A program made the translations under genes and the position numbers. DNA of 24,126 nt from an uncultured Bdellovibrionales bacterium (GTDB taxonomy: Bacteria > Bdellovibrionota_C > UBA2361 > SZUA-149), in contig CBDUGV010000029.1 of the NCBI GenBank assembly GCA_965366815.1, forward strand, positions 1 through 24,126, read 5' to 3'. Positions 7,476 to 24,126 of the stretch are shown in pieces; the stretch's first letter is position 1; every line of letters begins with the position of its first letter. Below the pieces are notes generated by a model. That model searched no databases and had not been told where the DNA came from. It saw nothing but the letters and a program-made list of their open reading frames with translations.

Positions 7476-7483
7476 ATGGTGTG

Positions 7484-7993: not shown

Positions 7994-8323
7994 AGTTGAG
8001 TCTCCAGGGGGAACGGATAAAAGGTGACGCGTAAAAACAAATGAGTACGTTCTGTCCTTTGTTCTTAAGTGTCACCTCTCGTCGACGATTCTCTCCTGCA
8101 ACTCGAAAAAACCCAATCCACAGCGTCCGCCCAGAGCAAACTACGTCAAGATTCGGCGTATCTGCTCGGGAGGACCATTTCCCAACAACTCATGCAAAAT
8201 AATGAGAAAGAGACCTATGAGCTTGATTTGCCATAAAAATACTAATTTTTCAAATTTCTCGCTGCTGAATACCGTCTCCTCGCTCACGTCTAAGAACAGC
8301 GAAACGAAATAGGAGCCATTTAG

Positions 8324-9007: not shown

Positions 9008-9075
9008 GCGACGCTGAAAAGACGCATTCTCCGGGGAATTTCACCGACTGACGAATGCATCAATGTTCCATGTCT

Positions 9076-9987
9076 CTAAGAAGTGCTGTCGTCCGTAGAG
9101 GTCGTAGTGCTGCTAGTGGATGCACCCTGTGCACAGCTCAGCGTTACGTCAGCTACCACATCGTCAACCGTAGTCGTTCCAGTTAAGTTGACAGTATCCA
9201 GCACAGAATCAGTAACTGTTCCAGTCCCTGTTAGGCTGATAGCGAGATCGCTCGGTTGAATATCAACTCGTCCAATCGCTGAGCCAGTGCTGTCGACGGT
9301 AACCGAGGCTACAAAAGAGACCTCGTTGTCGCTGTTGCTATCGCACAACTCAGAAATTTCACAAGGCGAGGCGGTTTCACTGCGAAACATAGTTACGGTA
9401 AAGCTATCATTCGAATTGGACTGGCTAAATACATCGACGTTACTTAGCGTTACGTCCATCGAAGGAATGCCGGTGGTGCTTCCATCAGATTCGGTTGCCC
9501 GGGTGGAGATGTTCAGTGTGCACTGATCTACATCGTTATCTCGCCCAGTTATGGTAAAGCGATCAGAGATTGAGGTGTTACCAGCCCGATCCCGAGCAGT
9601 GATTACAAAGGTAGCTGGAAGACCCGTTGCGAAAGCGTCTTGCAAAATAAACTCATCGACGAATAAAGAGGCTGGGAAATCCAAATAGTCGACGATCTTT
9701 TCAAAGCGCGTTGCATTCGGACGTCGAATCCAGATAGATGTGAAAATTCCATCGGCAAACACACCTTGCTCGACGAGGTCATCTACACAAAACCATGAAA
9801 TGAAGAACCCCGCAGTGGCAGAAGTTGGGTGTGAGATTTGGCAACGCGGCGCAGTGCCATCACCACCTCCGCCATAGCGAAATCCGCCGAAATCCTGAGT
9901 CCGTTGCGCCTGTGCAGACGTGGTGAGGGAAGCTAGCAACAGTGCTATGCTGCTGAGGTACAGAAAGCCCACTTTTCTGTTCGTCAT
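9076..9987 (-). CDS. secreted hypothetical protein with signal peptide and Thr/Ser/Asp/Val-rich beta-strand-like C-terminal half
   Basis: Signal peptide LYLSSIALLLASLTTSAQA. A Gly-rich linker follows, then repeated TVT/VTD motifs suggest an Ig-like or adhesin-like fold. Confidence 0.55.
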   Translation of the reverse strand: MTNRKVGFLYLSSIALLLASLTTSAQAQRTQDFGGFRYGGGGDGTAPRCQISHPTSATAGFFISWFCVDDLVEQGVFADGIFTSIWIRRPNATRFEKIVDYLDFPASLFVDEFILQDAFATGLPATFVITARDRAGNTSISDRFTITGRDNDVDQCTLNISTRATESDGSTTGIPSMDVTLSNVDVFSQSNSNDSFTVTMFRSETASPCEISELCDSNSDNEVSFVASVTVDSTGSAIGRVDIQPSDLAISLTGTGTVTDSVLDTVNLTGTTTVDDVVADVTLSCAQGASTSSTTTSTDDSTS

Positions 9988-10030
9988 GTTTTTTTCCTAC
10001 TAGATAGTAATTAAACAATAAATCTGTTTC

Positions 10031-10813
10031 TTAAGATTCGCCGCCAGGCAGCACATTGAATGCCGGAACACTCAAGCCGTCGTCTGCCGCACTTCCCATT
10101 ATAACCTCTATACCGTCACTATAGCCATCATCATCTGAGTCGCGATCGGTAGGTGAAGTGCCGTTAAGTGCTTCTATGTCGTCAGAAAGCCCATCGCCAT
10201 CTAAATCGGGAGGACCAGCGCCAAATCGCTCAATTCCATCCGCTAAGGGTGGATTGATTCTTGATGGGCGGCTTGAAGCGTTCAAGGGATCGGACTCGGC
10301 CACGAGTTCTAAGGCATCTGTGTACCCGTCTCCGTCGGTATCCGGATCATTGTGATCAGTTCCGATTGATCGTTCAAATGCAGTGCCAATGCCATCCAAA
10401 TCAGCGTCAGAATCAACCGATACGGCTGCAAGGAGCCGAGATTGGTTAAGCGGGCTCGGCGATAAACTCGCGTTGAGTGGATCGCCGGTATTGATAACGA
10501 ACTCCAGACCATCGGCGAATCCGTCCTCATCCGTATCGGATTTGGTCGGATTTAAGAGAAAAGTACTTTCCAGTAAATTAAACAAGCCATCGGCGTCGTC
10601 ATCTGTGTCATCACTGCCCGCGTCATCATCAGAATCCCCGGAATCATCGCTTCCCGAGCCGTCGTCAGTGGTGTCGTCAGTCGTTCTCGCCGCCTGTCCG
10701 CCGAACACCACATCATCTGAAAGTGAGCACTTGTTGGCCCCGAGCAGCAGCAGCGCCAAACAGAGGAGAAGGAGTTGAAAGAAAGGACGATTTGAATTGC
10801 CGAGGAAACCCAT
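10031..10813 (-). CDS. secreted calcium-binding protein with thrombospondin type-3-like (DxDxDGxxDxxE) repeats
   Basis: At least 5 Asp-rich loops: DTDEDGFADGLE, DPDTDGDGYTDALE, DLDGDGLSDDIE, DSDDDGYSDGIE and SDDSGDSDDDAGSDD. The signal peptide starts at MGFLG (ATG 10811-10813). The track's longer ORF to 10912 probably over-extends. Confidence 0.65.
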   Translation of the reverse strand: MGFLGNSNRPFFQLLLLCLALLLLGANKCSLSDDVVFGGQAARTTDDTTDDGSGSDDSGDSDDDAGSDDTDDDADGLFNLLESTFLLNPTKSDTDEDGFADGLEFVINTGDPLNASLSPSPLNQSRLLAAVSVDSDADLDGIGTAFERSIGTDHNDPDTDGDGYTDALELVAESDPLNASSRPSRINPPLADGIERFGAGPPDLDGDGLSDDIEALNGTSPTDRDSDDDGYSDGIEVIMGSAADDGLSVPAFNVLPGGES

Positions 10814-10910
10814 GCTGGTAAAGTAGCGGTGTTCCCTAGGGGCAGCAAGCAAATTTTGAGCAATATAGCGCAGCTTGCTAGGGTGAAAGAAAAACACACA
10901 CATATTCCTC

Positions 10911-11996
10911 ATGAAACCCGCCGGAAATCAGTTACTTGCCGAATTTACGCATTGTCGCTCAACACTGTTGCTCGATACCTCCGAGCTTGTTTCTGTGCTC
11001 GAACGGGCAATATCGGCCGCTGGATTGCATATTGTCGAAACCAGCTGCAAACATTTCGAACCACATGGTGCGACAATCCTCGCGCTGATCAGCGAATCAC
11101 ACGTGGTACTGCATACCTATCCCGAGGCAGATCATCTCTCAGTCGATATTTTTACCTGTGCCGGAGATCTAGGACCGGCACACCAGGTGCTTCGCAATCT
11201 CCAGAAGGAACTCGCTCCTGGAAGTATCCGTACGGCTGAGGTGAAAAGAGGCGCGATGTTAGATGTGAGTCGACCAGGTTGGGTGCAGTTGACTTCAACA
11301 GATGGCATTGATGTGCGTTTGCAAATTGCCGAGTGCTTGCATTCGGCACAATCTGAGTTTCAGAAGATAGAAGTAGTTCGCAGCGAGCAATTTGGCACGA
11401 TGTTGGTAATCGATGATCACCTGCAACTGGCCAGTGCCGATGCTGGGCTCTACAACACTTGCTTGATACAACCACTTTGTCAGCTCGGTGCATCGTTTGA
11501 GAATGTTCTGTTGCTTGGTGCGGGGGATGGCGCATTGGCAACGCAAGTGTTGCAGGAAGAGCCTACTGAAATACAAGTGGTGGATATCGATCCAGTCGTC
11601 GGACAGATATGCCGCGAGTTTTTCCCAGATCTCGTTCAGTCGGCATTTGATGATACACGATGCCAATTCCACTACATAGACGCACTTTCGTTCTTAGGGC
11701 AGAGGGCCTTTGAGCGACACTACGATACTGCGATTTACGATCTAACGATGCATCCAGAAGCATTTACCAAGAAAACGCGAAGGGAGTATTTGGGGGAACT
11801 ATTCTCGGTTTTGGAACAGAGCATGAAACCAGGCGCACTATTGAGTCTTCAGTGTTGTAGCAGTCACGACGTCGAGACTCGCCGTATGATTGAGGAGTTG
11901 CTTTTAGTTTGTTTCGAACAGCACTCGTTTCACGAAGCATTTATTCCCTCACTGTGTCGACCCTGGTTGTTTGCTACCGCAGGTGTCGCTCGTTAG
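10911..11996 (+). CDS. bifunctional S-adenosylmethionine decarboxylase (class 1a, pyruvoyl) - aminopropyltransferase (spermidine-synthase family) fusion
   Basis: Residues 1-115 match the SpeH-type AdoMetDC (HIVETSCKHFEPHGATILALISESHVVLHTYPEADHLSVDIFTCAGD, including the ES self-processing site). Residues 150-361 match the SpeE fold (VLLLGAGDGALATQVL, VVDIDPVV, AIYDLTMHPEAF). Confidence 0.8.
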   Translation: MKPAGNQLLAEFTHCRSTLLLDTSELVSVLERAISAAGLHIVETSCKHFEPHGATILALISESHVVLHTYPEADHLSVDIFTCAGDLGPAHQVLRNLQKELAPGSIRTAEVKRGAMLDVSRPGWVQLTSTDGIDVRLQIAECLHSAQSEFQKIEVVRSEQFGTMLVIDDHLQLASADAGLYNTCLIQPLCQLGASFENVLLLGAGDGALATQVLQEEPTEIQVVDIDPVVGQICREFFPDLVQSAFDDTRCQFHYIDALSFLGQRAFERHYDTAIYDLTMHPEAFTKKTRREYLGELFSVLEQSMKPGALLSLQCCSSHDVETRRMIEELLLVCFEQHSFHEAFIPSLCRPWLFATAGVAR

Positions 11997-12056
11997 TAGG
12001 TGATGGCTCGACGGGCTTCTATTGCTAAGAGCTAGTAATTTGGGCAGTATATCTCT

Positions 12057-12575
12057 ATGGAAAATCTTTTTAACAGCGTGCCGGAAGACTCTCGAGTTTG
12101 GGTATTTGGGGCTTCAACTGATTTTACTGAAGCTCAGATTGCCCGTGCACGAGAACTTCTCGACAGCTTCATGAGCGAATGGAACGCCCACGGTGCACAG
12201 GTTATCGGGGAGTATGCGATTTTAGAGTCTCGGTTCATTGTCGTTTCGGCCAGTAGCGCCGGTGCCCAAACCTCCGGTTGCTCAATTGACTCGATGGCGC
12301 GGACCGTGCGCAATGGTCTGGCCGAAGTAGGGGTTCAATTTGCCGATTTGTCCGACATTTTCTTTCGGGATCCGAACCTCGATGGCAGCGCAGCGGTTCG
12401 AACGATGAACCGCAGTGATTTTTCAAAGTTAGTTGCAAGCGGCAAAATCACGGATAGCACTATGGTGTTTGATCCAAGTGTGCAGTCGCTAAGCGAATTT
12501 AAACAGCGCTGGGAACGACCGTTTGCAGAATCCTGGCATGCACAGCTATTCCCCCGATCGACAAATGCGTCCTGA
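12057..12575 (+). CDS. hypothetical protein (172 aa) in the polyamine operon
   Basis: ORF 60 nt after the fusion gene and 14 nt before the DUF2130 gene. No recognised motif. Confidence 0.45.
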   Translation: MENLFNSVPEDSRVWVFGASTDFTEAQIARARELLDSFMSEWNAHGAQVIGEYAILESRFIVVSASSAGAQTSGCSIDSMARTVRNGLAEVGVQFADLSDIFFRDPNLDGSAAVRTMNRSDFSKLVASGKITDSTMVFDPSVQSLSEFKQRWERPFAESWHAQLFPRSTNAS

Positions 12576-12589
12576 TGTAGAGCACTTCC

Positions 12590-13771
12590 ATGTCTGACAA
12601 AATAGTCTGCCCAAGTTGCGAATATGAAATCGAGATAACGGAGGCGATCTCTTCTCAGCTTCGACAGAAGCTCAAGAAGCAGTATGAGGCAGAACAACGC
12701 TTGCTCGAAAAGAAGTTTGCCGAACAGCTTGAAAAAGAGGTTGCTCAGACGCGTGCTGAGGCAAGTGAAAAAGCAGCAGCGAAAGCGATGAGCGATGTCG
12801 CCGTAGAGTTGAAAGACCTTCGAGAGCAGTTGGGTGAGAGTAGAGAAAAACTCAGTAAGGCGCAGGAGTTTGAACTACAACTGCGTAAGGAAAAGCAAGC
12901 TCTCGAAGATGCAAAACGTGAGTTCGATTTGAAGTTGAATCGACAGCTCGATCAAGAGCGAGAAAAGATTCGCAAGTTGAGCAAACAGGAATTCATCGAG
13001 GAGCACTTACTAAAAGACGCTCAGAAAGAGAAAGTAATCAACGATCTTCGTGAGCAGATCTCTGAACTGAAGCGCAAATCGGAAGTGAGCTCTCAGCAGC
13101 TCCAGGGAGAGGTGCTTGAAGAGCAGTTGGAGCGCATACTTGCAGTTCAGTTTCCGTATGATGAGATTCAACCAGTTCCCAAAGGCGTTCACGGGGGGGA
13201 CGTTCTGCACCATGTGAATGATGCCGCAGGTGTGCGCTGTGGAACGATACTCTGGGAATCGAAGCGCACCAAGACTTGGAGTGACCTATGGCTTCCGAAG
13301 TTACGAGACGATCAACGAGCGGCTAAAGCCGAAGCAGCAGCAATTATCAGTATCGAATTGCCGCGTGACGTAAAGACATTCGCCTTTGTTGATACCGTCT
13401 GGGTGTGTAATTGGAACTGTGCGCTTGGCCTTGCTACCGCACTGAGGAATTCATTGATCGAGGTCTCTCAGGCAAAGCGTTCAATTGAAGGGCGTCAAGG
13501 TAAGATGGATCAGATTGTCAGCTATGTTTCTGGGCCGGAGTTCCGTCAGCGAGTTGAAGGAATCGCCGAAGCCTTCATGACCATGCGAAACGATCTAGAA
13601 GCTGAGAAGCGGGCCCTACAGAAACATTGGGCGAAACGGGAGAAGCAATTGGATCGAGCGATGACCAGCGCATCTGGTCTCTATGGGGACCTGTCAGGCA
13701 TCGTCGGGGCCAGTTTACCGGAGGTTGATGCCTTTGCATTGCCCGATCCAGAGGAAGTCGAGTCCCAGTAG
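12590..13771 (+). CDS. DUF2130-family protein: N-terminal CPSC zinc-ribbon half plus long coiled coil, and a C-terminal PD-(D/E)xK restriction-endonuclease-like domain (RmuC-like architecture)
   Basis: MSDKIVCPSCEYEIE, then about 170 aa of K/E/Q-rich heptads. The C-terminus has GGDVLHHV...GTILWESKRTKTW (D...ExK), FVDTVWVC and a terminal acidic tail. Confidence 0.7.
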   Translation: MSDKIVCPSCEYEIEITEAISSQLRQKLKKQYEAEQRLLEKKFAEQLEKEVAQTRAEASEKAAAKAMSDVAVELKDLREQLGESREKLSKAQEFELQLRKEKQALEDAKREFDLKLNRQLDQEREKIRKLSKQEFIEEHLLKDAQKEKVINDLREQISELKRKSEVSSQQLQGEVLEEQLERILAVQFPYDEIQPVPKGVHGGDVLHHVNDAAGVRCGTILWESKRTKTWSDLWLPKLRDDQRAAKAEAAAIISIELPRDVKTFAFVDTVWVCNWNCALGLATALRNSLIEVSQAKRSIEGRQGKMDQIVSYVSGPEFRQRVEGIAEAFMTMRNDLEAEKRALQKHWAKREKQLDRAMTSASGLYGDLSGIVGASLPEVDAFALPDPEEVESQ

Positions 13772-13904
13772 AGCAGTCTTAGGTCGGATTTGAGGCATAA
13801 AAATTGCTAATTTCGCCTGATTTAAGCGTAAATTCCCGCAATCTTTAGATAAATCACTAAATGTTCTCGTGGTTTCTGTCGATAGTAGAATCGAGGAAAC
13901 TATA

Positions 13905-14528
13905 ATGCGAGACGCGCCAATAAAATTGCGAAAGTTCGTAGTTGACCAGGAGTTGGTCCTGCACAGCTTGCTGTACATTCTTGCTGGGCTCTGCATTATA
14001 TCCCTGATTCTCCTGATAGCCTATTTCGTCCGCGCACGACGAATGAAGCAAGTCGCCGATAAGGTAGATGAACTTGGCTCACGGTTCTACCCAGTGCTCG
14101 AGCGGGTGCAAGCGGTAGAAGAGCATGCAGTTGACTATGCCAACTCGCTTGATTCCGAATCACTTGTTTGCTTGGACGAATTGCAGAAGATGGTTCGCAC
14201 CGTCAAGACAGTGCTGTTCGAGGTCGAGAGTCGACTCGAGTCTGGCGATTTTCGCGAATTCAAAGATGCTGAATTATTCTTAACTGGGAAACACCCTCGT
14301 CAGCTCGGAACTGAACAAAATTTCGATGGTGGTGAATTGAGTCTGCGGATCGATCCTGATTGGGAGCGCCATATGGAACGATTGTTGCAGATTATCGGTA
14401 AGAGTGTCTCGCATGCGTCACTTGCGGCAACTGAAATCGGCGTTCCGAAGCGGCGGAAACGAAAAGCCACTTTGATCTCGCTCTTTCGAGCTGGCATCAA
14501 AATGGATAAAGGCCCCTACCAAGCCTAG
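13905..14528 (+). CDS. single-pass membrane protein, hypothetical
   Basis: ATG 13905 preceded by GAGGAA at 6-nt spacing. TM segment LVLHSLLYILAGLCIISLILLIAYFV. The track start at 13869 is likely too early. Confidence 0.5.
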   Translation: MRDAPIKLRKFVVDQELVLHSLLYILAGLCIISLILLIAYFVRARRMKQVADKVDELGSRFYPVLERVQAVEEHAVDYANSLDSESLVCLDELQKMVRTVKTVLFEVESRLESGDFREFKDAELFLTGKHPRQLGTEQNFDGGELSLRIDPDWERHMERLLQIIGKSVSHASLAATEIGVPKRRKRKATLISLFRAGIKMDKGPYQA

Positions 14529-14538
14529 TGACCGGACA

Positions 14539-16143
14539 CTAGTAGTCCATACTTTCTTCGTAATACTGAACCAATACCTGATTATCAAGCCGATTGGCCT
14601 GAACCGGTAGTTTTGACATATCAGTATCGAAGACGAAAAGAGACGCTAGTATCTCAGCATTGAGATAGCGGGTTGGAACCTTTATCTGGATAGACTTCGG
14701 ATCAATCGTTCGATTGGCGGCCATTTGAAAGCCCCAGGGACCAAACGAGGGGACGTACACTGTGTAGGGAACAACCGCTGGAAAGACTTCGCTCAGTGTT
14801 TGATGAATCGACCAGAACGCTTTTCGTGCAAGGTAGGGCGAGGAAGATTGAGTCACGAGTATCCCGTCGGCAGTGAGTCGTTTCTTTAGAATTTCATAAA
14901 ACTCTTTACTGTAGAGCTTTCCTAAAGAAAGATCATTCGGGTCAGGTAGATCGATGATTATCGTAGAAAACAGTGTGGTTGTATTCTCAGCAAACTTATA
15001 TGCATCTTGAATTTCAATCTGTACTCGAGGGTCCCGCAAGGCATCTTGGTTGAGCGCACGTAGATCGGCGTTATTGAGTGCGAGTTCGATCATAGCTTTG
15101 TCGAGATCCACCAGGGTTATCTTTTGAACTTCCTGATGCTTCAGTATTTCCCGCACAACGAGTCCGTCTCCACCACCGAGCACCAAGACCTGCTCCGCTT
15201 TTCCGGTGAGCGCAATCGGAATGTGGGTAATACTTTCGTGATATCGATGTTCGTCGAGAGAGCTGAACTGTACATTCCCATTCAAAAAGAGTCGCAGATC
15301 ATCCTTGAATTTCGTGATGACGATCCGTTGATAGGCGGTTTGCTTGCTATAGATAATTTGGTCTTGGTAGATAAATCGCTCAAAGAAACCTACTAGAGTG
15401 AAGGAATAGACGAACCCAACCAACAACAGAATCGCTGAAACACCGGCAGCAAAATAAAATCGACCAACATTCGGGATTCGAGTCCGAAATTCATGAATGT
15501 TGAAGAAGGCAACCACGATGTTGAGCAAGCCGATGAGAAACGCTGTTTTCATCAAACCGAGATAGGGGAGGAGCACGAGCGGAAACAGCAGAGAGGCTAG
15601 TAAGGCACCGACATAGTCGAAACTCAGAATATTTGCCAATGTGTCCTTCAAGCTGCCATTGCTCTTGAGAATGCGAGTGACAACCGGAATCTCAAGGCCT
15701 GCGAGGATACTAATGCAAGCTACCAATAGGAAGGCAGTGGGATAGTACAGCTCGGTCAAGCTGTAGCTGAGATAGAGTATTGCTGCCGACATCCCCCCAA
15801 TCAAACCGATCGCCGTTTCGATAAATACAAAGTGACCAATGAGATTCGTGTTGAGAAACTTTGAGAGGTAAGAACCGACTCCCATGAAGAACATGAAAAG
15901 GCCGATGGTGAGCGAAAAATGGAGTATGCTGCTTCCAAGAAGATAGGATGAAAGGCTGCTGATCAGCAATTCATAGACAATCGCACAAATGGAAATCAGC
16001 AAGATGGAGCCAAACAGCACGCCTATCTGTCGCTGCGTGAGCACTTCCTCCGATCCCGCTGGAGGAAGGGCACCGTGAGCGGTTTCGTCTGAGGGCAGGC
16101 TCGCATTTGAAGGTGGAGTGCTATGGCTGGGCTTTGACTGCAT
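14539..16143 (-). CDS. speE: membrane-anchored polyamine aminopropyltransferase (spermidine-synthase family with N-terminal about 7-TM domain)
   Basis: The N-terminal 230 aa are multi-TM. The C-terminal has the SpeE signatures VLVLGGGDGLVVREILKH, KITLVDLD and IIDLPDPNDLSLGKLYSKEFY. ATG 16141-16143 lies 5 nt after the helicase stop. Confidence 0.85.
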   Translation of the reverse strand: MQSKPSHSTPPSNASLPSDETAHGALPPAGSEEVLTQRQIGVLFGSILLISICAIVYELLISSLSSYLLGSSILHFSLTIGLFMFFMGVGSYLSKFLNTNLIGHFVFIETAIGLIGGMSAAILYLSYSLTELYYPTAFLLVACISILAGLEIPVVTRILKSNGSLKDTLANILSFDYVGALLASLLFPLVLLPYLGLMKTAFLIGLLNIVVAFFNIHEFRTRIPNVGRFYFAAGVSAILLLVGFVYSFTLVGFFERFIYQDQIIYSKQTAYQRIVITKFKDDLRLFLNGNVQFSSLDEHRYHESITHIPIALTGKAEQVLVLGGGDGLVVREILKHQEVQKITLVDLDKAMIELALNNADLRALNQDALRDPRVQIEIQDAYKFAENTTTLFSTIIIDLPDPNDLSLGKLYSKEFYEILKKRLTADGILVTQSSSPYLARKAFWSIHQTLSEVFPAVVPYTVYVPSFGPWGFQMAANRTIDPKSIQIKVPTRYLNAEILASLFVFDTDMSKLPVQANRLDNQVLVQYYEESMDY

Positions 16144-16148
16144 ACGAC

Positions 16149-19100
16149 CTATTTATCAGCTCGTTCCAGACGAAAGGCAAGCACTTCCTTAGTTTTTCTT
16201 ATCTCATTAGCCGCAAGAGGACCGCGATAATGGAGCGAGGTTTCTTCTCGGTGATAGCGAGAGTGTTCTTTGCGCACGGCCGAGAACCAGTTAAAGGAAC
16301 CTTCGATCATTTCTTTCTCATCGATGAAGATCGATTTGTTGTGTATGCCGTCAACCATGAATAGCCCAGCGCCCGCTTCGACAATCTGCGCTCGCCCGAT
16401 CGATGGGTTCTCTCGGAGGGCTCCCGTTTCAGGGTCGATATCCAAATGTGAATCAGTATAGACTTTGACTTCAACACCTCGAGCAATCGTTTCTCGGATC
16501 AATGTATCGATTGAATCGGCCTCGATTGCTGCTCTAGAAATTTGCGGAGAAATGATGATAAGTTCTCTTTGAGCAGATCGAAAGGACTCAACGAGCGCAG
16601 CTCGATGTTGAGCGAGAGAACTAAGACGCGTAATTTGCTTTTCTTTAAATCCAGATCGCGGCGGCAATTCGATTCCATCCAGCTGGTTCCCTTCAACATC
16701 GCGAAACAGGTAGTGGGCCAGGAGTCCAGAGGGAGCTTTTCTGCTTCGCTCAAATATTTCCATATCTCCAATCGTCAGGAAGCTATCTCGCGCTCGAGAG
16801 ACCGCGACGTTGAGCATATTCACACCACGATCAAAGAAGTAGTTCGAATCGGGGATACTTCGATCATATACTGGGGAGAAAATCATTATCCTGCGTTGGG
16901 CCCCCTGCATCGAGTGGACGGTTCCAATAGCAAGTCTCGGAAAGTCCTTTCGCAGCAGGAGTTCGAGTTGGTGTCGCTGTGCGGCGAAAGGGGTGATAAT
17001 TGCTACGATATCCTTATCGATTGTTTCTCCAGAATAGAATTCTTCCAAATCTTGTTTTTTATTGCGAATCCATGAGGCAATTGCTTCTGCCTCCATCACA
17101 TTGGCCTTACTTGTTCCAACCTGCTCACAGGTTCCACCGATATGCCAGTAGCCAAATGCTGGTACAATTCGCTTCTCTGCCGAGGGCCGTCGGGGGTGGA
17201 GGCGGCCGCGGTAGGCAAGTTTATTGCAAAAGTCAATTACTTCAGGAACTGAACGCCGATGCTCGGTAAGAAAAACGCCAATGGTCGAATGGCCATCGGC
17301 GGAAGTATCAATTATCGGACAGGCGTTCTGGGCAAGCTGCATGATATTACCAGAAGAGGCCATCAGTCCACGCTTGCGAACTGCCTTCATCTGTTTTTTG
17401 TTGCCGCGTTTAACGATTTTAAACGTCGTCAAGTTCTGCTCGTCTACATGTTTTGGGATGCTCCAGATCGGTTCAAGCTGAAGGGTATCGCCGACAACAA
17501 TTGCCCGTTTCGCCAAAGCAAAGCTTGCCGCTCCAACTTCTGGTGCGATCTGTCCAGCCTCATCAACAATCAAGAGGTCGATGAGGGGCGAACCATCTTC
17601 GGCCAGTTCACCAAAGAACCTCGCTGCTGTACTCATCGTTGAAACAAAGCAAGGAGTGACCATGGCACGCCTTCTCCAATCCACGGCAGATGCTTTGAGC
17701 CAGTTGGAATGAGTCGTTTCTTCGAGTCGTGCAGCTTCTTCTTGTGCTGCGAGTAGCCAACGACCTTCCCAATAGTGGGTGCTTAGTTGGAAAATACGAT
17801 GTCGTCTACTGAGGTCTAGTTTCGCATTGGCAATATAGAGTGATTTGTAATCAATCGGAGTTTTTAATCCAACATGAGTCTTGACCCAACCCAGCGCTGA
17901 CTCAAAGCGGGTTGCAAAAATATCGCCATTTAGTCGCGCCGTCTCTCTTTGAATTTCTTTTTGAAAGAAGCGAATTGCCTGCTTCGTGGTTAGCTTCTTC
18001 CCCACAAGAGTTGAACTTCGCTGCAAATACTGTTTTTGAGCTTCTCGAATGTAGGCCCAGTTCTCCATTTGCTTTGAGAGACCCTCACCGTCGCCTCGCT
18101 CGTAGTGAATGCCCATCGCCTCTGCATCCTCAGCACGGGCTTTGGAGGGACAGTAGGTGCCGTAGCTCTTTACGCCCGGAAGCCAGTGCCCAGCAAGTGG
18201 ACCCTGCTTGGTTTTCGCCTGAGCAAACGATTCGATAATGTTGGTCACTGCTTGGTTGGTCTCTGCACATGCCAAGATAATCGGTGGTTTCCCGCCATCA
18301 TGTGCGGCCTTTGCCCAAAGGGAGGCAATGATACTTTGTAGTAACGTCGTTTTTCCCGTGCCTGGTGGACCGCTTACCGCGAGAATCGTACCGCTTCCTA
18401 AGGAAAAATAATTGTGAACGGCGTTGCGTTGCGATGGCGAAAGGGGGAAGGCATGTTCAAACTGACCCAGATGGGCCTTAGCACCTTTCGCAAGCGAATA
18501 GGTCGTTCGTTTAACGTATTTGCGATCTTTCTCTTTGATTTGAACCAGATTACTCAACACGCCCGAGTGTCGACGTCCCTGAAGTACTTGTTGATAGATT
18601 CGTCGGGGATTGGCCGTCGCACCCTGACCACTGGAGTCGAGAACAACCGCGGCAAACTTTCTTTTTCTATAGTCGGGGAGGGTAAACTCAATGAAGTCAC
18701 TGCCGCACGCAGCTTTAAACAGAGCCTTCGCTTCTTTCCAATACTGCGGCCAAGTCATAGATTCTGAGAAGGGAAAACGAAGCAGGTGTTGCTCAAACTC
18801 GTCCAAGGAGCCGATAATAACCGTCTCATCTGATACCATCGGTTCAAGATAGGCTCGTGGTATCCAAGGCAGAGGCCTCTTTGGCACAAGCAGCGTGCCG
18901 TCTTTGGCAATCTCCGCTGGAATCCAATATGCATCAACAAATCGGGGTGTATTTGCCACTAGGGGATCCGCTTCAGAAATGCGCTGAAGCCGTAACGGGC
19001 AAATTGCGACTGAGATATTCGATTCTACGTCACTCGCGAACTCACCTCTCGAAGCATCTCTTCGTTTCCCCTTGTTTCGTTGCTTCTCTTGCTGCTTTTG

Positions 19101-19406
19101 TTTCTTTTTTAGCTCTTCAAGGCATTTCTCAGAGCATCGTTCATTGATCAGGTCGGCGAAGGCGGTTTCTGCCCCACGACTAAAAACGTCCGAACCATTG
19201 ACCTCCATTCGCTGTGAATCGACGAGGCTGCGTTGCCAGTAGCGTACCACTGCCGCAACGTCTTTGTCGGGCAGCTTTACGTTCGTATCTGCTTTTTTGT
19301 GATTGGGGCGACGCTTTTTCACTGCACTGCAGTTTTGTAACGAAGATCCGACAGCCAAGCTGTGCGTGAACTTCGTTGAGTATCTAGCTCGCGACAGCTG
19401 CTGCAA
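16149..19406 (-). CDS. Upf1/DNA2-like SF1 helicase fused to C-terminal single-HKD phospholipase-D-family nuclease (type II Mokosh MkoC-like architecture). Start uncertain: TTG 19404-19406 or an internal GTG/ATG (for example ATG 19206-19208)
   Basis: Walker A GPPGTGKTT (18345-18371). Walker B LLIVDEAGQ (17550-17564). Motifs V/VI GTVHSMQGAQRRIMIF and NMLNVAVSRARDSF. HKD motif HNKSIFIDEKEMIEGSFN (16290-16343) has the exact HxK-x4-D-x6-GSxN spacing. Confidence 0.85.
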   Translation of the reverse strand: MQQLSRARYSTKFTHSLAVGSSLQNCSAVKKRRPNHKKADTNVKLPDKDVAAVVRYWQRSLVDSQRMEVNGSDVFSRGAETAFADLINERCSEKCLEELKKKQKQQEKQRNKGKRRDASRGEFASDVESNISVAICPLRLQRISEADPLVANTPRFVDAYWIPAEIAKDGTLLVPKRPLPWIPRAYLEPMVSDETVIIGSLDEFEQHLLRFPFSESMTWPQYWKEAKALFKAACGSDFIEFTLPDYRKRKFAAVVLDSSGQGATANPRRIYQQVLQGRRHSGVLSNLVQIKEKDRKYVKRTTYSLAKGAKAHLGQFEHAFPLSPSQRNAVHNYFSLGSGTILAVSGPPGTGKTTLLQSIIASLWAKAAHDGGKPPIILACAETNQAVTNIIESFAQAKTKQGPLAGHWLPGVKSYGTYCPSKARAEDAEAMGIHYERGDGEGLSKQMENWAYIREAQKQYLQRSSTLVGKKLTTKQAIRFFQKEIQRETARLNGDIFATRFESALGWVKTHVGLKTPIDYKSLYIANAKLDLSRRHRIFQLSTHYWEGRWLLAAQEEAARLEETTHSNWLKASAVDWRRRAMVTPCFVSTMSTAARFFGELAEDGSPLIDLLIVDEAGQIAPEVGAASFALAKRAIVVGDTLQLEPIWSIPKHVDEQNLTTFKIVKRGNKKQMKAVRKRGLMASSGNIMQLAQNACPIIDTSADGHSTIGVFLTEHRRSVPEVIDFCNKLAYRGRLHPRRPSAEKRIVPAFGYWHIGGTCEQVGTSKANVMEAEAIASWIRNKKQDLEEFYSGETIDKDIVAIITPFAAQRHQLELLLRKDFPRLAIGTVHSMQGAQRRIMIFSPVYDRSIPDSNYFFDRGVNMLNVAVSRARDSFLTIGDMEIFERSRKAPSGLLAHYLFRDVEGNQLDGIELPPRSGFKEKQITRLSSLAQHRAALVESFRSAQRELIIISPQISRAAIEADSIDTLIRETIARGVEVKVYTDSHLDIDPETGALRENPSIGRAQIVEAGAGLFMVDGIHNKSIFIDEKEMIEGSFNWFSAVRKEHSRYHREETSLHYRGPLAANEIRKTKEVLAFRLERADK

Positions 19407-19680
19407 TTATAATGCAGATTCCCAAATTGGTCAGCCCAGCGAGTATCGCCAATGCAATATTGTTATTCGCAATGTCGGCACTCAAATTCCCTGGTGTCAA
19501 CAAATCGATGACCTTATAGGAAAAGAATGCAACCAGGATTCCAATCGCGCTATAGACGAATGTGGCAATCACATCATTGAGTACCGTGTTTCCAGTAACC
19601 GCAAATTCCGCAGCATATGCGGGTGTCGCAAAGACAAGTAGCGCAGTACTCAAAAAAGCGATCGGTAGATATCTGTTCAT
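19384..19680 (-). CDS. DUF350-family small membrane protein (YjfL-like)
   Basis: 98 aa with an N-terminal hydrophobic/signal segment and the conserved VIDLLTPG motif, followed by two more TM helices. RBS GAGGAG 5 nt upstream of ATG 19680. Confidence 0.75.
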   Translation of the reverse strand: MNRYLPIAFLSTALLVFATPAYAAEFAVTGNTVLNDVIATFVYSAIGILVAFFSYKVIDLLTPGNLSADIANNNIALAILAGLTNLGICIIIAAAVAS

Positions 19681-19733
19681 CTCTTGCTCCTCTCAGGTCA
19701 TTTCCCTGTTCCGTAAAGACTAGTTTGTACTAT

Positions 19734-19973
19734 TTATTTTCCACCACGTGGGCCACCGCCGCGACTACTTCTGCCATAAAAATAACTGCGATGAGAGCGG
19801 CGGCAATTGCCAAATGAGTCTCGAAGATGTGCTGGGCAACTCCGCTTCATTTCAGATGTCAATTTGGCATTGCGTTCAGAGGACATCCCCCATCCTCCAT
19901 GCGATGCCATCACTGGAAGCAATACCGTACTGCCGAGCAATGCTCCTCCAAAGATTTTACTTAGCGGTCCCAT
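19734..19973 (-). CDS. possible small protein (79 aa): hydrophobic N-terminus with R/G-rich tail; weakly supported
   Basis: It is the only ORF in a 353-nt gap between DUF4178 and DUF350 and lies on the operon strand. No good SD. Confidence 0.25.
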   Translation of the reverse strand: MGPLSKIFGGALLGSTVLLPVMASHGGWGMSSERNAKLTSEMKRSCPAHLRDSFGNCRRSHRSYFYGRSSRGGGPRGGK

Positions 19974-20033
19974 AGTTCTATTAAATCGCCTCTATTCCCG
20001 TTCTACAAACACAGGGTTGCCTCATGGTATCGC

Positions 20034-21374
20034 CTAATCATCATCGGGCAGCATCTGCAATATAAGATAGCCCAGAAGCAAAATACCGATTACGGCATAT
20101 AACGGATTCAATGATTTAAATCGCCGGATCGAGAATCCCAACCCTAAGGTAGTGAGGAAGGCTATCAGGTAGTACCTTGAGAGAATGACCCCCTCATAGA
20201 TCTGTAGGCGAAGCCATCCGGTTGATGCAGTCCCTTTATCGACAAAAAAGCGTGGGTAGTAAGTGCCTGGAGTATCCAAACGAAAATAGCTCTTCTGTTG
20301 CAGATCGGATTCAGACCAAGCTCCGTCACTGTCTCTACCAGATTCGCGCCAAAAATCATCTTCAAACGCGTTAATCACCTCTTGACTCTTGTCCAGGAGT
20401 TCAACGCCACCCCAGGCCCAGGAGTTGTCTTTTATCGCAGTCGTCAGTTTTAGCAAGTGAACCTTGCCGGTCGCCGTTAGCTCTATTGGTTTATGAGTGA
20501 AGCCCTGTTCTGGGATACCACTAAAATCTACTCGAAGGTCGGCAATTTGCTTCCCGCTCTTTGTGCACGAGTATAGAAAGAGCACACAGCAAACGGCCGC
20601 AGCGCCAAAGAATGCAGCAGACCATTTCCTATACTGCTTCTCGACAGCCTGTGCGCGAAGCTCTTCATCAACAATCTCGGTCAAATTGAAAGCTCTGGCA
20701 ACATCGAGCCTTTCAATCGGCGTTGATTTATAAAACTCGACTTCCTCTATCTGATCGCTGCCTTCTTTTTTTCTCCACTCTACTGAATAGGTGGTAAACC
20801 CAAGTCGATACTCGGCTGACTCAGTGATATCGTCAATCTTGGGCACCCAGGTAAATTCACCTTCAAAGTGCATAATTTTCGATTTTGCAAACTCGAGGAT
20901 TCGCTGAGGCTTGTGGTCGGTATCGAGATTGAGATGAGTGTCGCCTTCCTTTGGCATACCTGGATTGGTCGGCGTAAACGCTTCTGCAAGGGAATATCCT
21001 TCGATATCTTCACAAAGATATAGGTATTCCTTGTTCTCACCGACGAGAATCCATTGATCGAATTTCCAGACCTCGTTGTAGTAGGCTGAGTCCTCCGGGT
21101 CCCATTCTCGGAGTCGACTGTTGAAACAGATTCTTCCGATTACCTGATATTTCTTGCCGTTAAACGTTCCAATCAATCCCAGTTTGATAAACGAGGCCGG
21201 GGAAAAGAATTTTGGCTTTAGGGTTGAGATGAGAGCAGCTTCTTCGGACGTCGCGACGTCGAGAACCGCCCCGCAGGATTTGCAGGTTACAACTTCCGGA
21301 TCAGCCAGAGCGGGGTCGAGAGGGCTAGTGCAGCTCGGACAAACAATCGCCTTGGTCTGAATATCGCTCATCAA
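20034..21374 (-). CDS. DUF4178-domain protein (large paralog) with N-terminal zinc ribbon and TM segments
   Basis: Zinc ribbon CPSC...CKSC at the N-terminus. DUF4178-like core YQVIGRICFNSRLREWDPEDSAYYNEVWKFDQWILVGENKEYLYLCED. An internal TM segment (AAFFGAAAVCCVLFLY) and a C-terminal TM pair are present. Confidence 0.7.
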   Translation of the reverse strand: MMSDIQTKAIVCPSCTSPLDPALADPEVVTCKSCGAVLDVATSEEAALISTLKPKFFSPASFIKLGLIGTFNGKKYQVIGRICFNSRLREWDPEDSAYYNEVWKFDQWILVGENKEYLYLCEDIEGYSLAEAFTPTNPGMPKEGDTHLNLDTDHKPQRILEFAKSKIMHFEGEFTWVPKIDDITESAEYRLGFTTYSVEWRKKEGSDQIEEVEFYKSTPIERLDVARAFNLTEIVDEELRAQAVEKQYRKWSAAFFGAAAVCCVLFLYSCTKSGKQIADLRVDFSGIPEQGFTHKPIELTATGKVHLLKLTTAIKDNSWAWGGVELLDKSQEVINAFEDDFWRESGRDSDGAWSESDLQQKSYFRLDTPGTYYPRFFVDKGTASTGWLRLQIYEGVILSRYYLIAFLTTLGLGFSIRRFKSLNPLYAVIGILLLGYLILQMLPDDD

Positions 21375-21405
21375 TCAAACGTCGCCATCTGAGTACAGGT
21401 TGTCA

Positions 21406-22014
21406 TTACCTAATTTCGATCTGGTCGATGGAAATTTCGCGACCGATTGAGAGATTGATTTCGTCGGGTGTAAACTCAATACTAACCAATTGCCCTCCTG
21501 CATTTCCATCGATGCAGTTCACCGACATTCCAGGAGTAATTGAGAAATACAATTCACCGATCCCACCAGCAATTTTTGCTACGTTACGCTCCGTGACAAA
21601 AACCGACATATCGTTAACTGGTATCATCGATCCGACGGAGATGTCGTCAAAGGCAGGGACCGGGGAGGTGAGTGTTTCTTTCTCGAAGGCAGTAAACTCA
21701 CCTTCGTCTTCCTGCAGCCAAAGCTTCTTGCCATTCTCAAACGCCAGAAACCATTCATCCCAGAAGCCATCATCGTAGGTGTAGCGCAGGCGGCCGACTG
21801 ACTTGAACTGCTCGCCGGCAATTGTTCCCGATGCTCCGATAGAAAAAATTGACTCGAAATCTGCCAGCTTCGTTTTCTCTCCAGAAGGGTCGAGACCCTC
21901 CGGGCTCACAGAGCAGGTTTGCCCACAATATTGGCAGATGACGACCTTTGAGAAGCGATTCTCCACACTCAGTGGAGCACCGCAGGAAGGACAATTATAT
22001 TCCTGGCTACTCAT
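21406..22014 (-). CDS. DUF4178-domain protein (small paralog) with N-terminal zinc ribbon
   Basis: Zinc ribbon CPSCGA...CQYCGQTC. Hallmark core RLRYTYDDGFWDEWFLAFENGKKLWLQEDEGEF. Lies 21 nt after the SPFH gene stop. Confidence 0.75.
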   Translation of the reverse strand: MSSQEYNCPSCGAPLSVENRFSKVVICQYCGQTCSVSPEGLDPSGEKTKLADFESIFSIGASGTIAGEQFKSVGRLRYTYDDGFWDEWFLAFENGKKLWLQEDEGEFTAFEKETLTSPVPAFDDISVGSMIPVNDMSVFVTERNVAKIAGGIGELYFSITPGMSVNCIDGNAGGQLVSIEFTPDEINLSIGREISIDQIEIR

Positions 22015-22035
22015 TCGCTGTGATGTCCCTTTTTC

Positions 22036-23079
22036 TTATAGGTCGGAAAGTATTTGAGCCTTCTTCTTGTCATATTCTTCCTGACTAATCAGTTCGGCGT
22101 CGAGCATATCCTTGAGTTTCTTAAGACGCGCGGTCGGATCATCGGCAGCTGCTGCGGGCGCCGCCGCTGCAGCTCCTGCTGCCGCAGCTTGTCCTTGTTG
22201 TCCGCCCATCATCCCAGAGGTAAAGGCTTGACCGAGGCCAACGCCCGCGCCCAAACCAACTCCGGCTCCTGCCATTCCACCTTCATTCTTGGCGGCGTCA
22301 CGCAGTGCTTCAAGCTGTTGTAGCTGAGCAAAGTCGACTCCCGCTCGTTTGGCTGCTGCAGCTTCTGCCGTGAGGTCGGCAATTCGACCGATTCTCGTTT
22401 TGGTATCTTGATCGAAGTCTGTGCCTTCGATTCGAAAATCGCTCATATTGAAGCCAAGCTTCTCAAAATCCGGAGCGACCAAACCACTCAGTTTAGCAGA
22501 CAGTTCAACGCGATTCTTGTCTATTTCGGCATAACTCAGACCAGCCTCAGCCAGGGTATCTGCAAGTTGCTCAAGAAAGCGTTCGGTAATTACTCTTCTT
22601 GCTTCCTCAACTGGAAACTCTTTTCTTCCCCCGACGATGTTTACAAAAAACGATTTCGGATCGGTAACACGAAACGTGAAATTTCCGTGTGCCCTGAGGC
22701 TCACCGGAAAGTTATAAACCGGGTCGTCATATTTTACAGGAGAGCTGGTGCCCCATTTTTGATTGAGGAACTTGGTCTGCCAGAAAAAGTAGAGGCCGAC
22801 TTTGTGCTCACTCTCGAAGCTCTGCATGAACTTCGTCAGAGTAGTGATAAACGGAATGTTGGCAGTGGAAAGCTCATACATCCCTTCGTTCAGGTGGACA
22901 GCTTCGATTTTTCCTTCGTAGAGAAAAATAACGCCTTGCCCAGGCTTTATTAAAAGTTTGGAGGCGTTCTTAATTTCGTCTCCACTCTCACTCCACAACT
23001 CGAATAACTGAGATGGGTCTGCATTCTCCCATTCAATTACCGAACGAAGTTGTCCTTTTACTCTATCCCAAAGCGCCAT
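22036..23079 (-). CDS. SPFH/band-7 (Band_7_1, virion-core-protein-like) domain protein with Gly/Ala-rich linker and C-terminal SHOCT domain
   Basis: The N-terminal 250 aa follow the Band_7_1 pattern (IEWENADPSQLFELW...EIKNASKLLIKPGQ...LRAHGNFTFRVTDP). An AGAGVGLGAGVGLG linker follows. The C-terminus DPTARLKKLKDMLDAELISQEEYDKKKAQIL is a SHOCT motif. Confidence 0.8.
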   Translation of the reverse strand: MALWDRVKGQLRSVIEWENADPSQLFELWSESGDEIKNASKLLIKPGQGVIFLYEGKIEAVHLNEGMYELSTANIPFITTLTKFMQSFESEHKVGLYFFWQTKFLNQKWGTSSPVKYDDPVYNFPVSLRAHGNFTFRVTDPKSFFVNIVGGRKEFPVEEARRVITERFLEQLADTLAEAGLSYAEIDKNRVELSAKLSGLVAPDFEKLGFNMSDFRIEGTDFDQDTKTRIGRIADLTAEAAAAKRAGVDFAQLQQLEALRDAAKNEGGMAGAGVGLGAGVGLGQAFTSGMMGGQQGQAAAAGAAAAAPAAAADDPTARLKKLKDMLDAELISQEEYDKKKAQILSDL

Positions 23080-23354: not shown

Positions 23355-24126
23355 CATGCCAGCTCATTCAAAAAACGCGAGCTTCGCGGTAGGCGAGGTC
23401 ATCGCTGAGCGCTACAAAGTTTCTAAAGTACTATCTCGAGGTGGAACCGGCGAAGTCTATGCCGTAAACGATCTCTCGTTAGACAATCAAATCATTGCCT
23501 TAAAGCTACTCTACCCTCATCTCCTGAGAGATGAGCGCGTCTACACCAGATTCAGGAACGAGGTCTTGCTAACTCGGGCATTGCGACACCCAAATATTAT
23601 CCAGATGTATGATCTCGGTCGAGATGATGCCGGACGAACATTTCTAACAATGCAGTACTCAGAAGGTGCAAGTCTCGGTCGGATGCTGCGACGTCTCACC
23701 AAGGAGCGACTCACGTTCAAGGAGATTGCTTACATTATTTGTGAAGTACTGAGTGGACTGAGCTATACGCATGAAGCAGGGGTCGTCCACCGAGATCTAA
23801 AGCCAGATAATCTACTTGTATCGACAAGCGCCGATATTCGAATAGGTGATTTTGGTACGGCACGAGCCCTCTGTCGGCCCGGAGCAACGAGGCCAGGTGA
23901 ACGAATTGGTACACCACTGTATATGTCGCCTGAGCAGTTTCGCGGGGAACAAGTAGATGCCCGTACAGATCTGTATGCGCTCGGCCTACTAGGGTTTGAG
24001 TTAGCGACGGGCGTTCCACCATTTCGAGGTTCAGACGTCATGACCGTCGGGCATAAGCACTGCAGTATGCCGATTCCAGATATGCGCCGTGCGAATCGAA
24101 ACCTCACCCATTGGTTTATCGAATTT
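23355..24126 (+). CDS. Hanks-type serine/threonine protein kinase, 3'-truncated at window edge
   Basis: RBS GAGGAAGAG 5 nt upstream of ATG 23355. Contains GxGxxG (SRGGTGEVY), VAIK-like ALKLL, catalytic loop HRDLKPDN, DFG and SPEQ motifs. No stop before the window end. Confidence 0.85.

What the first reader, a model, noticed from the sequence alone, without database searches (positions are those of the whole stretch)
16149..19406. Helicase-PLD nuclease fusion (type II Mokosh-like) embedded inside the DUF350 / membrane-SpeE operon
The 1085-aa protein has all SF1B Upf1/DNA2-type motifs and a C-terminal single-HKD PLD nuclease motif with exact spacing (HNKSIFIDEKEMIEGSFN). The N-terminal 330 aa are unassigned and include a K/Q-rich low-complexity stretch (ELKKKQKQQEKQRNKGKRRD). 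Helicase (COG1112-type) plus PLD nuclease in one polypeptide is the architecture described for type II Mokosh antiphage defence, and it is piRNA Armitage/Zucchini-like. In the DUF350/polyamine neighbourhood of E. coli yjfIJKLMC, as I recall it, DUF350 sits directly beside the polyamine enzyme. Here the helicase sits between the two, on the same strand. It overlaps the DUF350 stop by up to 23 nt, and its stop lies 5 nt from the speE ATG. Either a defence gene has been integrated seamlessly into a stress operon, or this helicase-nuclease is a genuine component of a polyamine/membrane stress system. The second reading would be new biology.
Basis: partly seen in the sequence, partly recalled or inferred. 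Interest (0 to 1): 0.82.

Follow-up and report, generated by a model that had tools for sequence, protein, structure and literature searches.

The report
Mokosh defence gene inserted in operon
A single-gene anti-phage system (type II Mokosh, a helicase fused to a PLD nuclease) has been inserted exactly between two normally adjacent genes of a conserved membrane-stress/polyamine operon in one uncultured bacterium; it is a clear member of a known defence family in an unusual place, not a new part of the stress system.

Summary
The ORF at 16149-19406 (-) is real, although the likely start is GTG 19322, giving 1057 aa. It has an intact Upf1-like SF1 helicase core and a C-terminal PLD domain with HxK(x)4D and GSFN motifs. 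It matches the PADLOC MkoC (type II Mokosh) profile at E=3e-286, and its catalytic residues are invariant across 116 aligned sequences.

The open question was whether the gene is an insertion or a genuine operon component. It is an insertion. In 26 related membrane-SpeE loci (46-70% identity), MkoC is absent every time. DUF350 abuts speE directly in most of them, with a gap of 0 nt in L004 and 21 nt in L032, the closest relative. Conversely, the eight closest MkoC relatives (40-53% identity) sit in eight different, unrelated contexts, one of them beside tRNA genes. Family members also occur on 69 plasmids.

Three independent assemblies carry the same junctions, so this is not a chimera. There are no transposon scars and no compositional signal. 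No terminator flanks the gene, so it is probably co-transcribed with the operon.

Verdict: a new member of a known kind. The operon context is a curiosity seen in a single lineage.

The parts
16149..19322 (-). mkoC: type II Mokosh helicase-PLD nuclease, 1057 aa from GTG 19322. The maximal ORF reaches TTG 19406 (1085 aa).
   Evidence: ORF. PADLOC MkoC E=3e-286. Public gene calls give 1057 aa. AF2 model has pLDDT 89.
18444..19322 (-). Conserved MkoC N-terminal module (residues 29-321 in 1085-aa numbering). It includes a variable, disordered K/Q-rich linker.
   Evidence: Conserved columns Y28, D35, W191 and others in the 50-sequence alignment. pLDDT is below 50 only at 1-10 and 86-99.
16761..18443 (-). 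Upf1-like SF1 helicase core (AAA_11 + AAA_12). Walker A GPPGTGKT lies at 18348-18371. Walker B is DEAGQ.
   Evidence: Pfam. Invariant in 116/116 sequences. Foldseek best hits are SETX, UPF1 and IGHMBP2. PDB sequence hits are IGHMBP2 and UPF1.
16287..16592 (-). C-terminal PLD-family nuclease domain. The HxK(x)4D motif HNKSIFID lies at 16320-16343, followed by GSFNW.
   Evidence: Pfam PLDc_2 1e-7. PADLOC MkoB 1.5e-14. H, K, D and GSFN are conserved in every homologue that has the domain.
19323..19383 (-). 61-nt leader between the DUF350 stop and the mkoC start (left end of the insertion). It contains a hairpin (AACGAAG...CUUCGUU) with no U-tract.
   Evidence: Sequence. Fold gives -24 kcal/mol, z=-1.94. 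No terminator was called here.
16144..16148 (-). 5-nt spacer between the mkoC stop and the speE ATG (right end of the insertion).
   Evidence: Sequence. The speE start position agrees with L004 (532 vs 534 aa).
19384..19680 (-). DUF350 (YjfL-family) membrane protein, the host-operon gene upstream of the insertion.
   Evidence: Pfam DUF350 2e-10. Three hydrophobic segments. It abuts speE in relatives.
14539..16143 (-). Membrane (about 7TM) spermidine/spermine-synthase-like protein, the host-operon gene downstream of the insertion.
   Evidence: Pfam Spermine_synth 1.4e-43. Hydrophobic segments span residues 37-258.
19734..23079 (-). Upstream part of the host operon: SPFH/Band-7+SHOCT (22036-23079), ZnR-DUF4178 (21406-22014), DUF4178+2TM (20034-21374) and a conserved small ORF (19734-19973).
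   Evidence: Pfam. The same gene order occurs in L004 at 47-73% identity. The operon type is described in PMC11237479.

Best explanation
The gene is a type II Mokosh (MkoC) anti-phage gene. It encodes one cytoplasmic polypeptide with three parts: the conserved MkoC N-module, an ATP-driven Upf1-like SF1 helicase, and a C-terminal PLD (HKD) nuclease.

By analogy with tested family members, the helicase is thought to recognise phage RNA or RNA/DNA replication intermediates, and the PLD domain to cleave nucleic acid. Both activities are required for defence. This mechanism is inferred, not shown here.

In this lineage the gene was acquired horizontally. It landed precisely in the zero-to-few-nucleotide junction between the DUF350 gene and the 7TM-spermine-synthase gene of a conserved PSP-type envelope-stress/polyamine operon (SPFH-SHOCT, DUF4178 x2, small protein, DUF350, mSpeE). 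The insertion is shown by synteny.

The gene has no terminator on either side, a 61-nt leader and a 5-nt gap to speE. It is therefore most likely transcribed with the operon, and speE translation now follows mkoC instead of DUF350. This step is inferred. The gene is a passenger in the operon, not a conserved component of it.
For: Family membership:
- PADLOC MkoC scores 951 bits, E=3e-286, with two stretches; the best aligns residues 518-1076 to model positions 575-1132 of 1136.
- Pfam finds AAA_11, AAA_12 and PLDc_2.
- Walker A, Walker B and HxK(x)4D/GSFN are invariant in homologues.
- The AF2 model (pLDDT 89) matches Upf1, SETX, IGHMBP2 and DNA2.
- The family definition and the mutational requirement for ATPase and PLD come from 10.1101/2022.05.11.491447. 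EcMokosh II is a monomer with a narrow phage range (10.1101/2025.07.10.664194).

Insertion:
- There are no MkoC hits in 25 related mSpeE loci, nor in the closest relative L032, whose SpeE is 70% identical. There, the DUF350 C-terminus is followed by 21 nt and then speE.
- L004 has the same six-gene operon, with the DUF350 TAG immediately followed by the speE GTG.
- Eight nearest MkoC relatives (40-53% identity) lie in eight unrelated contexts. One sits beside tRNA-Asn and tRNA-Asp.
- The family is found on 69 plasmids, 43 of them conjugative or mobilizable.

Not an artefact: the same junctions appear in three assemblies that differ by SNPs, at 99.83-99.84% identity.

Co-transcription: no terminator-like site lies at either junction.
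Against: - There is no experimental evidence of defence for this protein or for its ~1040-aa sub-branch.
- The window contains no other recognised defence gene. The sub-branch's neighbours are mostly housekeeping or membrane genes rather than defence islands.
- GC, GC3 and codon usage are indistinguishable from the flanks. No target-site duplication or terminal repeats mark the insertion. The transfer is therefore inferred from synteny alone, and neither the vehicle nor the age is known.
- The nearest comparison genomes are distant (SpeE 70% identity or less), so no true 'empty site' in a sister strain was seen.
- Co-transcription is inferred from the absence of terminators in a simple scan, in an organism whose promoter type is unknown.
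Confidence: 0.82

Rival explanations
1. MkoC has been co-opted as a working component of the DUF350/SPFH/membrane-SpeE envelope-stress system. For example, it might process RNA or DNA in response to membrane or polyamine stress. Its position in the operon would then reflect functional integration.
For: The gene has the same strand, a 61-nt upstream gap and a 5-nt downstream gap, and no terminators. Its codon usage is native-like. Two other sub-branch members abut Kef-type K+/H+ antiporters, and others abut MFS, Yip1 or DUF481 membrane proteins. This hints weakly at membrane-related neighbourhoods.
Against: MkoC is absent from 26 of 26 related operons, including the closest relatives. None of the eight nearest MkoC relatives lies near DUF350, SpeE, DUF4178 or SPFH genes. 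The protein has no membrane segment. The published description of this operon type lists no helicase. The two Kef neighbours are only 27% identical and lie in different orientations.
Confidence: 0.06
2. The ~1040-aa sub-branch is not an immune gene. It would be a chromosomal housekeeping helicase-nuclease (RNA surveillance or DNA repair) that merely shares ancestry with Mokosh.
For: Sub-branch genes sit as solo genes among ordinary metabolic and membrane genes, with no PADLOC-recognised defence neighbours. Composition is native. Within-population diversity is low.
Against: Distribution is patchy and every genome shows a different context. Sequence identity among relatives is only 40-53%, and one gene lies beside tRNA genes. 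This is typical of mobile accessory genes, not housekeeping genes. The full-length MkoC profile score is 951 bits. The family N-module is shared with canonical ~1150-aa MkoC proteins.
Confidence: 0.08
3. The gene is a decaying relic, an inactive pseudogene-like insertion.
For: There is no recognisable promoter of its own, and no Shine-Dalgarno sequence is obvious upstream of GTG 19322.
Against: The 1057-codon frame is uninterrupted. All catalytic and nearly all family-invariant residues are present. The fold is predicted with high confidence. Across the population variants there is only one synonymous and one non-synonymous SNP in 3174 nt.
Confidence: 0.03

Closest known systems
Type II Mokosh, MkoC (Millman et al. 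2022; PADLOC PDLC03924; E. coli EcMokosh II)
   Same: It is a single polypeptide with the order N-module, Upf1-like SF1 helicase, C-terminal PLD nuclease. It matches the full-length profile at 951 bits. The Walker A, Walker B and HxK(x)4D residues that are required for defence in tested members are present.
   Different: It belongs to a shorter (~1040-1060 aa), divergent sub-branch that is only 31-38% identical to typical 1150-1180-aa members. It is wedged inside a non-defence operon rather than in a defence island or on a mobile element. It is untested experimentally.
Type I Mokosh (MkoA helicase-STK + MkoB PLD)
   Same: It has the same two catalytic modules. Weaker profile hits are found to MkoA (1.6e-33) and MkoB (1.5e-14).
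   Different: The modules are fused in one protein. The protein has no Ser/Thr kinase domain. There is no separate MkoB gene.
Eukaryotic Upf1-family helicases and the piRNA pair MOV10L1/Armitage + PLD6/Zucchini
   Same: The helicase fold matches Upf1, SETX, IGHMBP2 and Sen1. The helicase + PLD pairing parallels MOV10L1 + PLD6, as noted by Cury et al. (10.1101/2022.12.12.520048).
   Different: Sequence identity is only 13-18%. The bacterial protein is a single-chain fusion. No small-RNA pathway is implied.
PSP-associated 7TM-spermine-synthase / DUF350 / DUF4178 operon (Ravi et al. 2024, 'second group', Band-7+SHOCT variant). This is the host operon.
   Same: The window carries SPFH/Band-7+SHOCT, two DUF4178 proteins, a small conserved protein, DUF350 and a 7TM-Spermine_synth protein on one strand. 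A PspA gene and a SpeD-SpeE fusion lie nearby.
   Different: The published operon and 26 relatives have no helicase-nuclease. Here the DUF350|speE junction is split by 3.24 kb that carries mkoC.

Membership tests
Type II Mokosh (MkoC) | Single gene encoding the helicase N-terminal to the PLD nuclease | tested here: met
   One ORF carries AAA_11/AAA_12 at 322-882 and PLDc_2 at 939-1040.
Type II Mokosh (MkoC) | COG1112/Upf1-like SF1 helicase with an intact ATP-binding site | tested here: met
   GPPGTGKT and DEAGQ are invariant in 116/116 sequences. Foldseek hits to SETX and UPF1 reach E~1e-22. PDB sequence hits are IGHMBP2 and UPF1.
Type II Mokosh (MkoC) | PLD-family nuclease with the H-x-K-x4-D active-site motif | tested here: met
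   HNKSIFID at 1022-1029 plus GSFNW. H and K are invariant in the 50-sequence alignment.
Type II Mokosh (MkoC) | Significant match to the curated MkoC profile that is better than to MkoA or MkoB | tested here: met
   PDLC03924 MkoC scores 951 bits (3e-286), against MkoA 114 bits and MkoB 52 bits. DefenseFinder models were not available.
Type II Mokosh (MkoC) | Protects against phage, dependent on the ATPase and PLD residues | not testable with these tools
   This needs phage challenge of wild type against Walker A and HKD mutants.
Type II Mokosh (MkoC) | Accessory or variable presence, and association with defence islands or mobile elements (typical, not strictly defining) | tested here: inconclusive
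   Variable presence is met: 0 of 26 related operons carry it, and eight relatives lie in eight contexts. The family also occurs on plasmids. However, no other defence gene is in the window and there are no mobile-element scars.
Type I Mokosh (MkoA/MkoB) | Separate helicase-STK and PLD genes | tested here: not met
   The modules are fused in one ORF, and the protein has no Pkinase domain. The nearby kinase gene is a separate, divergent gene outside the operon.
PSP-type DUF350/DUF4178/7TM-SpeE operon | The helicase-nuclease is a conserved member of the operon | tested here: not met
   There are no MkoC hits in L004-L028 or L032. DUF350 abuts speE in about 17 of 22 informative loci. The published operon description lists no helicase.
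PSP-type DUF350/DUF4178/7TM-SpeE operon | The host genes themselves: 7TM-Spermine_synth, DUF350, DUF4178 and Band-7+SHOCT | tested here: met
   Pfam hits. Hydrophobic segments. Gene order is conserved in L004.

The most novel reading that the evidence does not exclude
The insertion may not be neutral hitch-hiking. By sitting inside a PSP-type envelope-stress operon, mkoC would be expressed from that operon's stress-responsive promoter, so that Mokosh immunity is switched on by membrane perturbation such as phage entry or lysis-related damage. That would be an example of a defence gene wired into a 'phage-shock'-like response. A stronger version is that MkoC cooperates physically with the membrane system.
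Probability: 0.1. Interest if true: 0.55.

Novelty: new member of a known kind. Interest (0 to 1): 0.25.

Why it matters
The practical result is that a standard defence-system annotator would already call this gene mokosh_type_II. The suggested 'new biology', a helicase-nuclease as part of a polyamine/membrane stress system, is not supported by comparative genomics.

What remains mildly interesting is the anatomy of the event. A 3.2-kb single-gene defence system sits scar-free in a 0-21-nt junction of a conserved operon. It was apparently tolerated because operon read-through and speE expression are preserved. This shows that defence genes need not reside in islands. It also shows that operon-embedded insertions can mislead guilt-by-association function prediction for families such as DUF350, DUF4178 and SPFH.

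The finding also defines a shorter, divergent MkoC sub-branch from uncultured bacteria. That sub-branch could be sampled when the still-unknown Mokosh mechanism is studied.

Tried and rejected
- Insertion scars. I looked for direct or inverted repeats flanking 16144-19383. None has arms at the borders.
- Compositional evidence of transfer. GC, GC3 and RSCU of mkoC equal those of the flanks, so this was uninformative.
- An own promoter. A sigma-70-like site lies at 19434-19406. However, promoter-like sites in the region are fewer than in shuffles (6 vs 10), and the TATAAT encodes the conserved DUF350 'CIIIAA' motif. I rejected it as evidence.
- Leader RNA. The hairpin has z=-1.94 and 7 of 200 shuffles fold as well, so it is weak. 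There are no Rfam or tRNA hits in the window.
- Closer relatives for a true empty site. Genome and metagenome scans and a protein search found nothing above 70% SpeE identity other than the same population.
- Taxonomy. Cluster look-up returned no organism names, so the organism remains an unclassified MAG. SpeE relatives are mostly Cytophagales/Bacteroidota MAGs.
- mSpeE as a MADS 'mad2' defence protein. The PADLOC hit (8e-17) covers only the SAM-dependent transferase domain, and the same gene is conserved in all non-Mokosh operons, so I rejected it.
- DUF2130 hit to LmuB (E=3.6e-4, no stretch passing). I rejected it as coiled-coil noise.
- Viral carriage. Only 2 phage records and 1 full-length IMG/VR locus were found, and the pattern scan was saturated by the generic P-loop motif, so this was uninformative.
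- No solved Mokosh structure appeared among the 6 PDB sequence hits or the top 50 fold hits.
- The N-terminal module was not fold-searched on its own.
Full report
**Observation**

The minus-strand ORF 16149..19406 (1085 aa from the farthest TTG) is present. Pfam assigns AAA_11 to residues 322-647 (7e-19), AAA_12 to 709-882 (1e-18) and PLDc_2 to 939-1040 (1e-7). Every quoted motif is there: GPPGTGKT, DEAGQ, HNKSIFID...GSFNW and the K/Q-rich stretch. The stop codon is followed by 5 nt and then the ATG of the membrane spermidine-synthase-like gene.

One detail needs correcting. Public gene calls for the identical protein give 1057 aa, starting at GTG 19322. Eight relatives begin with a similar short basic peptide about 25 residues before the conserved YW(R/L) motif. 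The gene therefore most likely starts 61 nt after the DUF350 stop and does not overlap it.

**What the protein is**

Against PADLOC models the protein matches MkoC, the single protein of type II Mokosh, at 951 bits (E=3e-286). MkoA scores 114 bits and MkoB 52 bits. In a 116-sequence alignment of database homologues, the Walker A and Walker B residues are invariant, and H, K, D and GSFN of the PLD motif are present in every homologue that has the domain. A curated 50-sequence alignment gives H994 and K996 (1057-aa numbering) as invariant.

That alignment also shows the 'unassigned' N-terminal ~300 residues to be a conserved family module (Y28, D35, W191 and others). The K/Q-rich segment is a variable-length linker, and AlphaFold predicts it to be disordered. 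The rest of the model is confident (mean pLDDT 89, pTM 0.85). Foldseek against the PDB returns SETX, UPF1, IGHMBP2, Sen1, Aquarius and DNA2 (E about 1e-22 to 1e-17). This confirms a Upf1-like SF1 core. The protein has no predicted membrane segment.

Millman et al. define type II Mokosh as exactly this architecture. They showed that mutations in the ATP-binding site and the PLD active site abolish defence. A 2025 preprint reports that EcMokosh II is monomeric and defends narrowly. The helicase/PLD parallel with the piRNA pathway (MOV10L1 and PLD6) is published.

**The host operon**

On the same strand lie six host genes:
- SPFH/Band-7+SHOCT (22036-23079)
- ZnR-DUF4178 (21406-22014)
- DUF4178 with two TM segments (20034-21374)
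- a small conserved ORF (19734-19973)
- DUF350 (19384-19680)
- downstream of mkoC, a Spermine_synth protein with about seven hydrophobic segments (14539-16143)

A PspA homologue and a SpeD-SpeE fusion are also in the window. This is the PSP-associated polyamine operon type described by Ravi et al. 2024, with 7TM-spermine synthase, YjfL/DUF350, a small lipoprotein and DUF4178. Variants of related operons have Band-7+SHOCT in place of the CesT/PspA dyad. No helicase is part of that description.

The E. coli yjfIJKLMC cluster is a different variant, in which yjfM separates yjfL from yjfC.

**Insertion or genuine component?**

I scanned GTDB representative genomes and JGI metagenomes with the membrane SpeE and obtained 25 loci at 46-62% identity, mostly Cytophagales/Bacteroidota MAGs. 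tblastn found no MkoC in any of them. In about 17 of 22 informative loci, a DUF350 ORF ends within -41 to +33 nt of the speE start, and in a few cases within 137-389 nt.

L004 carries the complete six-gene operon at 47-73% protein identity. There the DUF350 TAG is followed immediately by the speE GTG.

A protein-database search found a closer relative, with SpeE at 70% identity. Its contig (L032) begins with the DUF350 C-terminus (...LGICIIIAAVLAS*), followed by 21 nt and then speE.

Conversely, the eight nearest MkoC relatives (40-53% identity) lie in eight different neighbourhoods:

| Locus | Neighbourhood of the MkoC relative |
|---|---|
| L001 | ArgR upstream, HTTM downstream |
| L002 | Yip1 and a Kef-type antiporter |
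| L029 | a Kef-type antiporter and a Ser/Thr kinase |
| L040 | metallo-beta-lactamase-fold protein and DUF481 |
| L041 | MFS transporter |
| L030 | an unannotated divergent gene |
| L031 | unknown small genes |
| L039 | tRNA-Asn and tRNA-Asp |

None of these contains DUF350, SpeE, DUF4178 or SPFH genes. The tRNA genes in L039 were confirmed with ARAGORN. MkoC-family genes also occur on 69 PLSDB plasmids, 43 of them conjugative or mobilizable.

The parsimonious reading is a single lineage-specific gain of about 3.24 kb (16144-19383) at the DUF350|speE junction.

**Not an artefact**

The same arrangement is present in the window (a 24,126-bp NCBI contig), in a 76.7-kb ENA contig (L003) and in a 12.6-kb contig from another ENA assembly (L033). 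These differ from the window by 30 and 20 SNPs respectively, at 99.83-99.84% identity.

**How the insertion looks**

- No direct or inverted repeats bracket the insert.
- GC, GC3 and codon usage match the flanks.
- No terminator-like site lies at either junction.
- The 61-nt leader folds into a modest hairpin without a U-tract (z=-1.94).

I infer that mkoC is read through from the operon promoter, and that speE translation, formerly abutting DUF350, now follows mkoC. This is inference and was not shown.

**Rivals**

- Functional co-option into the stress system is disfavoured by the 0/26 conservation and by the unrelated contexts of relatives.
- A housekeeping role for the ~1040-aa sub-branch cannot be excluded. 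Its neighbourhoods are not defence islands, and no PADLOC hits occur in the window or among the sampled neighbours. However, patchy and ever-changing contexts argue for an accessory gene.
- Decay is contradicted by the intact frame and motifs.

**Verdict**

This is a new, divergent member of a known family in an unusual location, and interest is modest.

Noticed in passing
window 19734-19973 (-): A 79-aa ORF between the DUF4178-TM gene and DUF350 is conserved in many related operons, including L004, L006, L010, L011, L014, L015, L018 and L027. It has an N-terminal hydrophobic stretch and a C-terminal Gly-rich tail ending ...GG(x)nGK. The public gene calls for the ENA contig miss it. It may be the small 'Ctha_1186 lipoprotein' of the PSP polyamine operon.
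   Followed up: partly
L002 13139-14866 (-); L029 6280-7977 (+): Two of the eight nearest MkoC relatives directly abut a Kef-type Na_H_Exchanger+TrkA_N gene, at 12 nt (convergent) and 23 nt (same strand). The antiporters are only 27% identical and the MkoCs 38%, so this is either an independent recurrent association or chance.
   Followed up: partly
window 6149-23079, compared with L003 and L033: SNP density among the three population variants is uneven. Against L003 there are about 26 SNPs in 6149-16143 but only 3 in 16149-23079 (mkoC plus the upstream operon). mkoC itself has 1 SNP per comparison in 3174 nt. This may reflect a recent sweep or recombination of the mkoC-bearing segment, or stronger constraint.
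   Followed up: partly
window 19339-19377 (-): A hairpin (AACGAAG...CUUCGUU with an inner ACAGC/GCUGU stem) lies in the 61-nt leader upstream of mkoC. It has no U-tract, and z=-1.94 against shuffles. Its function is unknown.
   Followed up: partly
window 5731-6366 (-), 10911-11996 (+), 12590-13771 (+): The wider window is a PSP/polyamine neighbourhood. It contains a PspA/IM30 homologue, a SpeD (AdoMet decarboxylase)-SpeE fusion and a DUF2130 protein on the other side of the membrane SpeE. These flanks are not syntenic in L004 or L032.
   Followed up: no
window ~23355-24126 (+), runs off the end; L029 11319-12410: A Ser/Thr protein kinase gene is divergent from the SPFH operon in the window, and another lies 193 nt downstream of the MkoC relative in L029. 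Type I MkoA carries an STK domain, so the co-occurrence is worth a glance, but it is probably coincidental.
   Followed up: no
L039 3509-3690: The closest MkoC relative (53% identity) lies 270 nt upstream of a tRNA-Asn/tRNA-Asp pair, a classical integration hot-spot.
   Followed up: yes
window 14539-16143 (-): The membrane SpeE gives a PADLOC hit to 'mad2' of the MADS system (E=8e-17) over its SAM-dependent transferase domain only. This could produce false defence calls for this operon family.
   Followed up: partly
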